From: a virus
Taxonomy: Duplodnaviria; Heunggongvirae; Uroviricota; Caudoviricetes
Virus record (IMG/VR): IMGVR_UViG_646311924_000011
Length of the DNA: 61,742 nucleotides
Direction: 5' to 3' (one strand)
Made by a program: the position numbers. Shown one piece after another: positions 60,001-61,742 of the stretch (position 1 is the stretch's first letter; every line of letters begins with the position of its first letter).

Positions 60001-61742
60001 CCCGCAGGCTTTTCAGCATTGGTCTGGCCCGCTGAACTACGAAACTCGACTGGTCAAGCCGTGCCGCCTCTCTCAGTAGCACATCTCTGTTCTTCGTCAC
60101 CATGTAGATGGTCTCAAACGCAATGTCATACAGCTTGTTCGTGTATGAGGAGTTCAGCTCTTTCATGATCGGATACAGGTGTTTGCTGAGGTCCTGGGCT
60201 TTTTCCATCCAGAGTTGCATGTAGCAGAGGAGGATGATTTCCTCGTCTGTGAATTGTTGCTGTGGTTCTGCTTGTGCCGACTGCATGTTGCGAAGTTTCT
60301 TTTCGCACTCGATGAAGTATCTGCGTATCTGTCGGCCTTTTTCGTTACGCTCTACCATCGCCGTTTCTTTGGCTGTATCGAGGGTAAGGTGGTAGTCTTT
60401 TTTCCCTCGCCCATAACCTATTTCCCGTTTCTGGGAAATAGCTATATAGTCCTGATTTTCAACGAATCCGTACTCTTCAATACGTTCTGTAATCCACGAT
60501 GCAAAGCGTTTACCTACTCCAAGAAAAGTATGTAAATCACGGGCATTAACGAGAAGAGTGGTTTCGTTGGCGATAGTGCCGTTGAATACGGGGATGAGTT
60601 GACTGGTCATGATGACCTCCTTATTTGTTTAGTTTATAACCGCCAGTTAGTAGCTGGCGGTCGGGTGTCAACTGAGCCAAATAAGAAGCTCTGGGCATAT
60701 TCCCCTTGCGGGTGTTGTATTACGCCTCTCCACCCGACCTTTGTACGGATGTAACTATGCCAAATTGCAGGCATAAAAAAGCCGCAAAGCTATCGGGTGC
60801 GGAGACCGCTTATTTGTTCAGTGCGGTCAGTATGCGATAGCTCTGGAGGATTTGTCAATCAGCGGAATATTGATGAACGGGTAACGGTAAATGCCTCATC
60901 CAGAAAATTAACGCAAATTCGCATCGCAAACTTGCGTTAATTATCTGAAATATCAAGTTAAATCCCCTTAAATGTTTGGGGCACTATTGGGGCAAAATGT
61001 GGTTGTTTGGGGCATATTTGGGGCAAAAAAGAACGTATAAAGAACGGTGTAAAATTGATTTCTTCATGGTCAAAATGAGGTGTAACAGATTGAAAAATAT
61101 ATGCTCTTGGACGATCTTCGGTAATTCTGTGTTTTTAATGCTTCATGGTTTCAATATGTCCGTACATGGAATAATAAAGCACCAGAACTTTAGCCATTTC
61201 TAACCACTCCTCGTGTTATCTCTATTCCGTAGCGATTCGCTACCACTTATTTAAAGATAAGACGTCCTTTTCAGAGTGCAAATTTCACAACCACTTATTT
61301 GATTTATAACAACTTTCACAAGCACGTAATTTTGTCGCAAAATGACACATTTTATCTCATCGCGTTTTTTTAATCATAAGAGCGGCTTATGGATAATTAT
61401 TTGAGATGATATTTATTCTCGCTAAGAAGCTGTTGCAGGATATTACCAAACGCGGGTCTGCCCGCGTCAGTTCACTAAGCTTAGTCCCACGTAGCGAAAA
61501 TATGGCAGCCGCCATACGCCGCGTTAATTCTATGCAATATGATGTCTATACCCAGACGGAGGTCAGTAATGGCAAACCATCGAGGCGGTTCCGGCAATTT
61601 TGCAGAAGACCGCGAAAGAGCATCAGAAGCAGGTAAAAAAGGTGGACAGCACAGCGGGGGTAATTTCAAGAATGACCCGCAGCGCGCATCTGAAGCAGGT
61701 AAAAAAGGTGGCAAGAGCAGTCACGGCAAAAGCGACAACTAG

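What the first reader, a model, noticed from the sequence alone, without database searches (positions are those of the whole stretch)
60975..61197. attR arm with four TTTGGGGCA repeats and an orphaned WrbA N-terminal stub
Four direct copies of the motif seen beside attL lie 120-185 bp from the attR core, consistent with Int arm-type sites and supporting the att assignment. The native wrbA 5' end survives as a 20-codon ORF that runs into phage DNA, with the wrbA promoter presumably still firing into the prophage b region.
Basis: partly seen in the sequence, partly recalled or inferred. Interest (0 to 1): 0.45.

Follow-up and report, generated by a model that had tools for sequence, protein, structure and literature searches.

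The report
Stx2 prophage attR integrase arm sites
This is the right-hand junction of the well-known Shiga-toxin-2 prophage Sp5/933W inserted in the E. coli wrbA gene, and the four short repeats are almost certainly the docking sites that the phage integrase uses to assemble its recombination complex: an ordinary feature, correctly spotted.

Summary
The window is 100% identical to the VT2-Sakai (Sp5) Stx2 prophage in wrbA. Four same-strand copies of (T/A)TTGGGGCA lie at 60975-61025, 123-173 bp from a 7-bp crossover GTTTCAA (61148-61154). Two more lie 63-88 bp from the attL crossover. The 20-codon WrbA stub (61197..61135, minus strand) is real.

The arm-site reading is strongly supported by comparison, though not by biochemistry. 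Integrase relatives at 43-69% identity use different insertion sites, yet they keep a pair of TGCCCCA words 11 bp apart at the int 3' end (71 of 80 genomes). These pairs show DNA-level conservation at synonymous positions. P arms at other cores carry 2-6 copies at a fixed 75-78 bp from a conserved box. The integrase has an Arm-DNA-bind_2 domain.

The read-through idea is doubtful. A strong terminator-like hairpin (60942..60906, minus strand) and ant's own promoter and leader lie between the stub and ant.

The prophage, its core and its excision junctions are already published. The repeats are annotated in GenBank only as "arrangement g/gg". Interest is low to moderate.

The parts
60975..60994 (+). 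Distal pair of P-arm arm-type sites: TTTGGGGCA (60975-60983) and ATTGGGGCA (60986-60994), 11 bp apart.
   Evidence: This 31-bp unit is duplicated once more in 933W and Stx2 phage I, where it is annotated 'arrangement g/gg'. The outermost copy is degenerate (TGGGGCG) in the O104:H4 prophage.
61006..61025 (+). Proximal pair of P-arm arm-type sites: TTTGGGGCA (61006-61014) and TTTGGGGCA (61017-61025), 11 bp apart. This is the pair at the family's canonical position.
   Evidence: Its end lies 78 bp from the conserved box, within the 75-78 bp seen in 15 of 16 P arms.
61028..61046 (+). Two direct repeats of AAAGAACG (61028-61035 and 61039-61046), 11 bp apart. Candidate binding sites for the DUF1233 excisionase (inferred).
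   Evidence: Read. Relatives have analogous AAGTTCG-type direct repeats immediately core-side of the arm sites. The position matches lambda X1/X2. Not tested.
61104..61117 (+). Conserved P-arm box CTCTTGGACGATCT, at -44..-31 from the crossover. Its binder is unknown. It sits at the position of lambda H2.
   Evidence: CTYYTGGRCGWTCT is present in 16 P arms with at least 4 different cores. It has no IHF consensus.
61141..61161 (+). attR core: phage-side core-type half-site CTTCATG (61141-61147), 7-bp overlap GTTTCAA (61148-61154), and bacterial half-site TATGTCC (61155-61161).
   Evidence: Four-way comparison of attB, attP, attL and attR. GenBank 'attachment site' and 'attR core' features.
61135..61197 (-). 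Orphaned wrbA 5' end: a 20-codon ORF (18 WrbA codons, then K, H, stop).
   Evidence: K-12 wrbA annotation. PGAP leaves it unannotated.
60906..60942 (-). Terminator-like hairpin on the minus strand (17-bp stem, 3-nt loop, then UUUUCU). In the lysogen it lies between the P arm and ant. In attP it lies about 235 nt downstream of the int stop, a position like that of lambda tI/sib.
   Evidence: dG -27.9 on the minus strand against -18.1 on the plus strand, because two pairs are G-U only on the minus strand. A weaker version is retained in the O104:H4 prophage. Rac has a similar hairpin distal to its arm sites.
60829..60858 (-). Sigma-70-like promoter TTGACA-18-CATACT upstream of ant.
   Evidence: 10 of 12 matches. 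Consensus match only.
60651..60739 (-). sRNA-Xcc1-family (RF02221) structured element in the ant 5' leader.
   Evidence: 69.1 bits against a gathering score of 53, full-length match.
59981..60610 (-). AntA/P22_AR_C antirepressor-family gene.
   Evidence: PF08346 at 3.7e-27; PF10548 at 6e-9.
548..554 (+). attL 7-bp overlap GTTTCAA.
617..636 (+). P' arm pair of arm-type sites (TTTGGGGCA at 617-625, TCTGGGGCA at 628-636). They lie inside the 3' coding end of int, in the codons for ..APDVPQ...
   Evidence: The same pair is found in 71 of 80 homologous int genes.
576..1886 (-). int: tyrosine integrase with an N-terminal Arm-DNA-bind_2 domain.
   Evidence: PF12167 at 6e-26; PF00589 at 2e-17. Catalytic R232, K267, R362, H385 and Y395 are invariant in alignment A1.
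1939..2238 (-). xis: DUF1233 putative excisionase.

Best explanation
The four TTTGGGGCA-type repeats at 60975-61025 are the P-arm arm-type binding sites of the Sp5/933W integrase. This is a lambda-type heterobivalent tyrosine recombinase whose N-terminal Arm-DNA-bind_2 domain recognises the word TGGGGCA. The two copies at 617-636 are the P' arm sites.

In the free phage the two arms flank a core made of imperfect inverted half-sites around the 7-bp overlap GTTTCAA. Int protomers bridge arm and core sites, probably with help from bending proteins. This assembles the intasome that recombines attP with the wrbA attB. For excision, the DUF1233 Xis probably binds the adjacent AAAGAACG repeats.

The proximal pair (61006-61025) is the conserved, canonically placed one. 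The distal pair is an extra 31-bp unit (three helical turns) whose copy number varies between phages: 4 sites in Sakai, 6 in 933W.

Integration cuts wrbA after codon 18, leaving a 20-codon stub under the intact wrbA promoter. Transcripts from that promoter should cross the P arm but largely stop at the hairpin at 60942..60906.

Shown: the sequence anatomy, the att junctions, family-wide conservation, and the domain content of Int. Inferred: actual Int and Xis binding, the roles of individual sites, and termination at the hairpin.
For: 1. Junctions. attB, attP, attL and attR define exchange within GTTTCAA. This agrees with GenBank features and with experiments.

3. Both arms. The motif lies on both arms in the same orientation, in pairs one helical turn apart. 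The pair pattern occurs 3 times against 0.0005 expected.

4. Conservation across relatives.
- 71 of 80 Int homologues (46-69% identity, many genera, different flanking genes) have TG[CT]CCC[AG]-N4-TG[CT]CCC[AG] at 31-61 nt before the int stop. Only 2 such pairs occur elsewhere in 643,636 nt.
- Third-codon positions inside the motif are at least 89% conserved, against 31-76% in the 15 upstream codons.
- In Rac-type ints (43% identity) the pair lies after the stop codon.

5. P arms of relatives carry the same word. Stx1_499 has 2 copies, PhiR5_1 has 3, Rac has 3, and IMG/VR arms have 2-5. The distance from the last site to the conserved box is 75-78 bp in 15 of 16 arms.

6. IMG/VR scan. 64 of 120 exact hits to the pair pattern sit inside the 3' end of a homologous int, and 11 more are P arms.

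7. Covariation. Two loci with an altered pair (GTGCTAC x2, same place and spacing) also have an altered N-domain: GVAPNKNH..RxWE instead of GVENHGG..RVRE.
Against: There is no binding or mutational data for this integrase in anything I could read.

All relatives examined also share the same Xis family, DUF1233. Co-inheritance alone therefore cannot separate Int from Xis as the binder. The argument rests on the motif's presence in both arms and on the Int domain type.

The covariation case is a single evolutionary event in the two most divergent loci.

The conservation table was anchored on the motif regex, so the 100% columns are partly by construction. The unbiased figure is 71 of 80.

Yersinia phage YP3 keeps the P' pair and the core but has no P-arm sites.

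No convincing IHF site was found.
Confidence: 0.85

Rival explanations
1. The repeats are binding sites for another protein, not Int: the DUF1233 excisionase, a host factor, or a phage regulator.
For: The Xis family is co-inherited with the Int family in every relative checked, so comparative association does not by itself discriminate. The repeats are direct and one helical turn apart, as Xis sites are in lambda.
Against: The word occurs on both arms, including 63-88 bp on the int side of the core. Excisionase sites are normally confined to one arm. A second, different direct repeat (AAAGAACG or AAGTTCG type) sits exactly where Xis sites would be expected. Int has a dedicated arm-binding domain. 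An altered motif coincides with an altered Int N-domain.
Confidence: 0.07
2. The repeats have no function. They are a slippage or duplication product (31-bp unit) in non-coding b-region DNA, and the P' copies are conserved only because they encode the Int C-terminal tail (..APxxPQ..).
For: Copy number varies (4 in Sakai, 6 in 933W). The outermost copy is mutated in O104:H4. The P' pair is always in the same reading frame.
Against: Synonymous third positions within the motif are nearly invariant while neighbouring ones are not. In Rac-type elements the pair lies outside the ORF. The same word recurs in non-coding P arms at a fixed 75-78 bp from a conserved box across at least 4 unrelated cores.
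Confidence: 0.04
3. One reading: the wrbA promoter drives read-through across attR into the antirepressor gene, giving stationary-phase (RpoS) control of ant.
For: The wrbA upstream region is intact (99.2% identical to K-12). The stub, the P arm and ant are all on the same strand. The consensus scan reported no minus-strand terminator between the stub and ant.
Against: Folding shows a 17-bp hairpin plus U-tract on exactly that strand (dG -27.9, z -5.9). It is stronger on the minus than on the plus strand, and the scan missed it. ant also has its own promoter-like site and an 87-nt structured leader.
Confidence: 0.2

Closest known systems
Bacteriophage lambda attP / Int-Xis-IHF intasome (arm sites P1, P2, P'1-P'3; X1/X2/F; H1/H2/H'; 7-bp overlap)
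   Same: Both have a heterobivalent tyrosine integrase with an N-terminal arm-binding domain. Both have arm sites on both sides of a core with a 7-bp overlap. P' sites are tandem about one helical turn apart at roughly +55..+85, and P sites lie around -100..-150. A second set of direct repeats sits between the P sites and the core, where Xis binds in lambda. The xis-int order is the same. A hairpin lies beyond att downstream of int, at the position of tI/sib.
   Different: The arm domain belongs to a different Pfam family (PF12167, not lambda's PF09003). The arm word is different (TGGGGCA, not C/AAGTCACTAT). P-arm sites come as 11-bp pairs with variable copy number (2-6). P' sites lie inside the int ORF. 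No recognisable IHF consensus was found. The target is inside a protein-coding gene (wrbA), with a mismatch on each side of the overlap.
E. coli K-12 Rac prophage IntR/XisR (YdaQ) at ttcA
   Same: Same Int family (43% identity) and same Xis family (DUF1233). There is a GGGGCA pair 11 bp apart just after int. Three GGGGCAAAA copies lie about 100 bp from the core in the P arm. A terminator-like hairpin lies distal to them.
   Different: The core is different and longer (26 bp shared, in ttcA). The flanking bases of the arm word differ (GGGGCAAA). The P' pair lies outside the int ORF.
933W / Stx2-converting phage I / Stx1-converting phage records (GenBank AF125520, AP004402, AP005153)
   Same: Same Int, same core and same P arm at 99.5-99.8% identity. 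The core is annotated as 7 bp. The repeat block is annotated as 'arrangement g' or 'gg; region III'.
   Different: 933W and Stx2 phage I carry one more 31-bp unit (6 sites) than the Sakai window (4 sites). The records give the block no function.

Membership tests
Lambda-type heterobivalent tyrosine-integrase attachment site (arm-type plus core-type sites) | Adjacent integrase with a tyrosine-recombinase catalytic domain and catalytic residues | tested here: met
   PF00589 at E 2e-17. R232, K267, R362, H385 and Y395 are invariant in A1.
Lambda-type heterobivalent tyrosine-integrase attachment site (arm-type plus core-type sites) | Separate N-terminal arm-DNA-binding domain in the integrase | tested here: met
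Lambda-type heterobivalent tyrosine-integrase attachment site (arm-type plus core-type sites) | Repeated word, different from the core sequence, present on both arms of attP | tested here: met
   Four copies in the P arm and two in the P' arm. The word is unrelated to the CTTCATG/GTTTCAA/CATGTCT core.
Lambda-type heterobivalent tyrosine-integrase attachment site (arm-type plus core-type sites) | The arm word tracks the integrase lineage, not the insertion site | tested here: met
   71 of 80 homologous ints with diverse flanks. P arms at at least 4 different cores. Rac. An altered word coincides with an altered N-domain in L084 and L089.
Lambda-type heterobivalent tyrosine-integrase attachment site (arm-type plus core-type sites) | Short overlap identical in attP and attB, flanked by imperfect inverted core-type half-sites | tested here: met
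   The 7-bp GTTTCAA is bounded by attP/attB mismatches on both sides. attL and attR carry the reciprocal alleles.
Lambda-type heterobivalent tyrosine-integrase attachment site (arm-type plus core-type sites) | Recombination directionality factor gene next to int | tested here: met
   DUF1233 putative excisionase at 1939-2238, minus strand.
Lambda-type heterobivalent tyrosine-integrase attachment site (arm-type plus core-type sites) | Sites for a DNA-bending accessory protein (IHF or similar) between arm and core sites | tested here: inconclusive
   Only one 1-mismatch IHF match (61083-61095, minus strand), at about chance level and not conserved. A conserved box of unknown binder sits at the H2-like position.
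Lambda-type heterobivalent tyrosine-integrase attachment site (arm-type plus core-type sites) | Direct binding of Int to the arm repeats, and a requirement for them in recombination | not testable with these tools
   Needs EMSA or footprinting and att-site mutagenesis. No such data were found in the searchable literature.
Intrinsic terminator / lambda sib-tI-like element (hairpin 60942..60906) | Stable stem-loop followed by a U-rich tract on the transcribed strand | tested here: inconclusive
   17-bp stem, dG -27.9, z -5.9, followed by UUUUCU. The stem ends are A-U rich, and the consensus scan did not call it.
Intrinsic terminator / lambda sib-tI-like element (hairpin 60942..60906) | Located downstream of int across attP, so that integration separates it from int | tested here: met
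   Geometry: about 235 nt beyond the int stop in attP, and at the opposite prophage end in the lysogen.
Intrinsic terminator / lambda sib-tI-like element (hairpin 60942..60906) | Termination or RNase III processing in vivo | not testable with these tools
   Needs 3' end mapping or an rnc mutant.
Rfam RF02221 sRNA-Xcc1 (element at 60739..60651) | Covariance-model score above the curated gathering threshold over the full model | tested here: met
   69.1 bits against 53, model positions 1-87 of 87, E 6e-13.

The most novel reading that the evidence does not exclude
The P arm of this integrase family may be a tunable, composite regulatory module.

First, the TGGGGCA arm word in 11-bp pairs is a family-wide code, and in most members it is written into the int reading frame. 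The number of pairs (1 to 3, i.e. 2-6 sites; 4 in Sakai, 6 in 933W) would set integration and excision efficiency, and hence Stx2-prophage stability.

Second, the strand-specific hairpin just beyond the arm sites would act as a lambda-sib-like retroregulator of int in the free phage. In the lysogen it would double as an insulator, stopping wrbA (RpoS-dependent) transcription from reaching ant.
Probability: 0.25. Interest if true: 0.5.

Novelty: new member of a known kind. Interest (0 to 1): 0.3.

Why it matters
The practical value is modest. The analysis gives a sequence-level map of attP for the commonest Stx2 phage integrase: arm sites, candidate Xis sites, a conserved box and the core.

It also gives a simple signature, TGGGGCA-N4-TGGGGCA at the int 3' end plus a box 75-78 bp from the P-arm sites. 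This signature marks prophage ends for a large integrase clade across Enterobacterales.

It identifies natural 4-site versus 6-site alleles that could be compared for excision frequency, which is relevant to Stx-phage loss and gain at wrbA.

It argues that wrbA-driven expression of the antirepressor should not be assumed.

None of this overturns existing understanding. It is the lambda paradigm in another integrase family.

Tried and rejected
- Tandem Repeats Finder found nothing at 60600-61300. The block has fewer than two full 31-bp units.
- The consensus terminator scan missed the hairpin. Folding was needed to find it.
- A sequence search of the PDB found only catalytic-domain relatives and no arm-domain structure.
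- Plunkett 1999 and Sato 2003 could not be retrieved. I therefore cannot exclude that those papers already call the repeats Int sites. Full-text searches for arm-type sites in Stx phages found nothing relevant.
- ON470595 (a Rac-type phage record) ends before its right junction. My first coordinate guess for Rac attR was wrong, and the right region was found.
- The IHF consensus scan was uninformative.
- I tried to count 4-site versus 6-site alleles in E. coli genomes by BLAST coverage. This failed because overlapping repeat alignments inflate coverage. It did reveal the O104:H4 allele with a degenerate outer site.
- The extra TGGGGCA at 733 (minus strand) is the int QMGH codons. It is not conserved at the DNA level in relatives, so I treated it as coincidence.

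Full report
WHAT THE WINDOW IS

The window runs from the stop codon of wrbA to the stop codon of ymdF, with a roughly 60.6-kb prophage between them. The right junction is 100% identical to Enterobacteria phage VT2-Sakai (Sp5; AP000422.1) and 99.5-99.8% identical to 933W and to Stx1/Stx2-converting phages. In complete E. coli genomes, 5418 of 5426 match the wrbA side and 150 carry the whole junction. wrbA lies on the minus strand. Its 3' part is at 1-553, and its first 18 codons are at 61197-61144.

OBSERVATION

- TTTGGGGCA at 60975, 61006 and 61017.
- ATTGGGGCA at 60986.
- All are on the + strand, arranged as two pairs with 11 bp between members and 31 bp between pairs.

Beside attL there is one further pair, TTTGGGGCA at 617 and TCTGGGGCA at 628, on the same strand and with the same 11-bp spacing.

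The 20-codon ORF MAKVLVLYYSMYGHIETMKH* at 61197..61135 is the native WrbA N-terminus through M18, plus two phage codons and a stop.

The word is not over-represented in the window as a whole. It occurs 14 times against 21 expected at up to 1 mismatch, and the 7-mer occurs 10 times against 7.4 expected. The arrangement, however, is far from chance. The pattern TGGGGCA-N4-TGGGGCA occurs three times against 0.0005 expected, and all three are within 175 bp of an att crossover.

THE ATT SITE

Four sequences were compared: K-12 attB (L004), attP read from circular phage records (L002 and L005), and the window's attL and attR. Together they give CAT[G/C]GTTTCAA[C/T]ATGTC. attL carries the bacterial allele on the left and the phage allele on the right. 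attR carries the reverse. Strand exchange therefore happened within the 7 bp GTTTCAA, at 548-554 and 61148-61154.

GenBank annotates the same 6-7 bp as the attachment site or attR core. Two experimental reports agree:
- The Sp5 attP was sequenced after excision and circularisation, and Sp5 re-integrates at wrbA in K-12 (PMC2669165).
- 933W integration in K-12 was mapped to CATCGTTTCAATATGTC (bioRxiv 10.1101/2022.08.08.503262).

The second paper also reports a 'wrbA G25A, V9I mutation' after prophage loss. That is exactly the change expected when excision restores attB: phage-supplied ...HVETM becomes native ...HIETM.

ARE THE REPEATS INT ARM-TYPE SITES?

The P' arm in relatives. This is the decisive evidence. 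Int homologues in phages at 62-68% identity (Stx1_499, PhiR5_1, Yersinia YP3) and at 43% (Rac-type), inserted at other loci, all have a pair of TGCCCCA-like words 11 bp apart at or just after the int 3' end.

A scan of one genome per species returned 80 homologous loci at 46-69% identity from many Enterobacterales genera, plus Photobacterium and Aliagarivorans.
- 71 of the 80 have TG[CT]CCC[AG]-N4-TG[CT]CCC[AG] at 31-61 nt before the int stop.
- The same pattern occurs only twice in the remaining 643,636 nt.
- Most of the other nine carry one-off variants.

The pair is always in one frame (xxT GCC CCA ... xTG CCC CAx). Third-codon positions inside the word are conserved in at least 89% of loci, against 31-76% for third positions in the 15 upstream codons. 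One caveat applies: that table was anchored on the motif, so the lower bound of 71/80 is the fair figure. In Rac-type elements the pair lies after the stop codon. The constraint is therefore on the DNA, not on the Int tail.

The P arm in relatives. The same word recurs in the P arms at the far ends of the prophages:
- Stx1_499 has 2 copies.
- PhiR5_1 has 3 copies.
- K-12 Rac has 3 copies of GGGGCAAAA about 100 bp from its 26-bp core.

A scan of IMG/VR for the exact pair pattern gave 120 loci. In 64 of them the pair sits 15-57 nt inside the 3' end of a homologous int. At least 11 more are P arms.

Across 16 P arms with at least four different cores, the layout is fixed:
- 2-6 arm words, with pairs at 11 bp and pair-to-pair gaps of 20 or 30 bp.
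- Then a different direct repeat (AAGTTCG type; AAAGAACG x2 at 61028-61046 in the window).
- Then a conserved box CTYYTGGRCGWTCT, 75-78 bp from the last arm word in 15 of 16 arms.
- Then the core about 30 bp further on.

Locus L098 is an intact attP showing both arms.

Covariation. Two loci (L084, L089) carry a different pair, GTGCTAC x2, at the same place and spacing. They also differ from all the others in the predicted DNA-contacting strands of the N-domain: GVAPNKNH..RxWE instead of GVENHGG..RVRE. This is a single covariation event, but it points the right way.

MECHANISM

This part is inferred by analogy with lambda Int, which is established knowledge. Int protomers bind arm words through their N-domains and core half-sites through their C-terminal domains, bridging the bent arms to the core.

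The family minimum is one pair per arm, four sites in total, which would match an Int tetramer. In the window the proximal pair (61006-61025) is the canonically placed one. The distal pair is an extra 31-bp unit, about three helical turns and therefore on the same face of the helix. It is duplicated again in 933W and Stx2 phage I, and its outer word is degenerate in the O104:H4 Stx2 prophage. That suggests an accessory or modulatory role.

The AAAGAACG repeats are the obvious candidates for the DUF1233 Xis. The box sits at the lambda H2 position but has no IHF consensus, so its binder is unknown.

THE STUB AND READ-THROUGH

The wrbA upstream region is intact (99.2% identical to K-12 over 61144-61400), so initiation presumably continues and the stub can be translated.

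Downstream on the same strand, about 190 nt after the stub's stop and just beyond the arm sites, lies a 17-bp-stem hairpin followed by UUUUCU (60942..60906; dG -27.9 kcal/mol, z -5.9). Two of its pairs are G-U only on the minus strand, so it is much stronger there than on the plus strand (-18.1). This points to a function as minus-strand RNA.

After the hairpin come a sigma-70-like promoter (60858..60829), a full-length sRNA-Xcc1-family element (60739..60651, 69 bits), a ribosome-binding site, and the AntA-family gene. ant therefore appears to have its own expression unit, insulated from wrbA. Read-through into ant is possible but is not the default expectation.

In the free phage the same hairpin lies about 235 nt downstream of the int stop, across attP. 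That is the position of lambda tI/sib. Rac has a comparable hairpin distal to its arm sites. A sib-like role is a hypothesis only.

WHAT IS KNOWN

The prophage, the wrbA target, the core and the excision junctions are all published. The repeat block is annotated in GenBank as 'arrangement g' or 'gg; region III', without a function. I found no paper assigning arm-type sites to this integrase. However, the primary genome papers could not be read.

RIVALS

- Binding by Xis rather than Int cannot be excluded by co-inheritance, because all relatives share DUF1233. It is disfavoured by the motif's presence on both arms and by the separate Xis-like repeats.
- A non-functional duplication is contradicted.

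EXCEPTIONS

Yersinia phage YP3 keeps the P' pair, the core and about 35 bp of the P arm. Its box, Xis-like repeats and arm words are replaced by an ORF, so its P arm appears truncated.

Many IMG/VR hits without a close Int homologue form their own recurrent families, some next to Gram-positive-type ints. The GGGGCA arm word may therefore be older and more widespread than this clade.

VERDICT

The att and arm-site interpretation is well supported, at about 0.85. The transcription claim is doubtful. This is a textbook kind of element in a very well-known prophage. The family-wide signature is a useful but unsurprising addition. Interest is 0.3.

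Noticed in passing
window 60651-60739 (- strand): A full-length Rfam sRNA-Xcc1 (RF02221) match, 69.1 bits against a gathering score of 53, lies about 40 nt upstream of the AntA-family gene start and downstream of a sigma-70-like promoter (60858..60829). A paper on APSE phages reports the same RNA family upstream of an ORF6N-domain gene. It may be a leader element of Ant/ORF6N-type genes rather than a free-standing sRNA.
   Followed up: partly
window 60906-60942 (- strand); L214 about 6300-6345 (- strand): A strand-specific 17-bp hairpin plus U-tract lies just distal to the P-arm sites. In attP it is about 235 nt downstream of int, like lambda tI/sib. Rac has an analogous terminator-like hairpin (ACCGCAG..CUGCGGUUUUUC, dG -20). 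It may act as a retroregulator of int and, in the lysogen, as an insulator against wrbA transcription.
   Followed up: partly
window 1-579 (- strand): The phage supplies a replacement start and 12 codons ([12 protein letters not shown]) in frame with wrbA codons 19-198. The ATG overlaps the int stop (ATGA), a translational-coupling arrangement. The chimera lacks WrbA strand beta-1 and the SMYGH FMN-phosphate loop, so it is probably inactive. In attP the same ORF is only 14 codons long.
   Followed up: partly
window 61104-61117; 16 P arms in L002, L005, L010, L011, L098, L108, L116, L131, L143, L151, L157, L182, L198, L201, L207: A conserved box CTYYTGGRCGWTCT lies 75-78 bp core-side of the last arm site and about 30 bp from the overlap, in P arms with at least 4 different cores. 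It has no IHF consensus, and its binder is unknown.
   Followed up: partly
L084 and L089 (int 3' ends; Pantoea sp. and an Enterobacterales MAG): The arm pair is replaced by GTGCTACA-NN-GTGCTAC at the same position and spacing. The Int N-domain is also changed (GVAPNKNHLRIWF..RxWE). This looks like a natural switch in arm specificity.
   Followed up: partly
L006 (Yersinia phage YP3, PV092592.1) 2790-3500: This attP keeps the P' pair, the core and about 35 bp of the P arm. The box, the Xis-like repeats and the arm sites are replaced by an ORF. The phage may be unable to integrate.
   Followed up: partly
L216 (E. coli O104:H4 2009EL-2050) 400-460; L002 1874-1955: Natural alleles of the wrbA-phage P arm differ. 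933W and Stx2 phage I have 6 sites, Sakai has 4, and O104:H4 has 4 with the outermost degenerate (TGGGGCG). The hairpin also varies between them: one compensatory change and one disruptive change.
   Followed up: partly
bioRxiv 10.1101/2022.08.08.503262 versus window 548-560: The 'wrbA G25A (V9I) mutation' reported after loss of 933W is simply the native attB sequence restored by excision (phage-side GTT becomes bacterial ATT next to the overlap). It is not a mutation that blocks re-integration.
   Followed up: yes
IMG/VR loci L119, L130, L155, L158, L159, L161, L167; L121, L176, L186; L197: Other recurrent contexts of TGGGGCA-N4-TGGGGCA were seen without a close Int homologue. Examples are a pair followed by ATGCCATTYAATGCC repeats, and pairs next to Gram-positive-type int 3' ends. 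One Int with only 29% identity has the pair at -21. The arm word may be shared by a much wider set of integrases.
   Followed up: no
window 60976-61203 (+ strand); L002 1929-2204, L005 1898-2173: The phage records annotate a 'hypothetical protein' (ORF-43 / B44) that runs through the arm repeats and the att core. In the lysogen it becomes a different 75-aa ORF ending in wrbA antisense. It is almost certainly a spurious ORF call over a recombination site.
   Followed up: no
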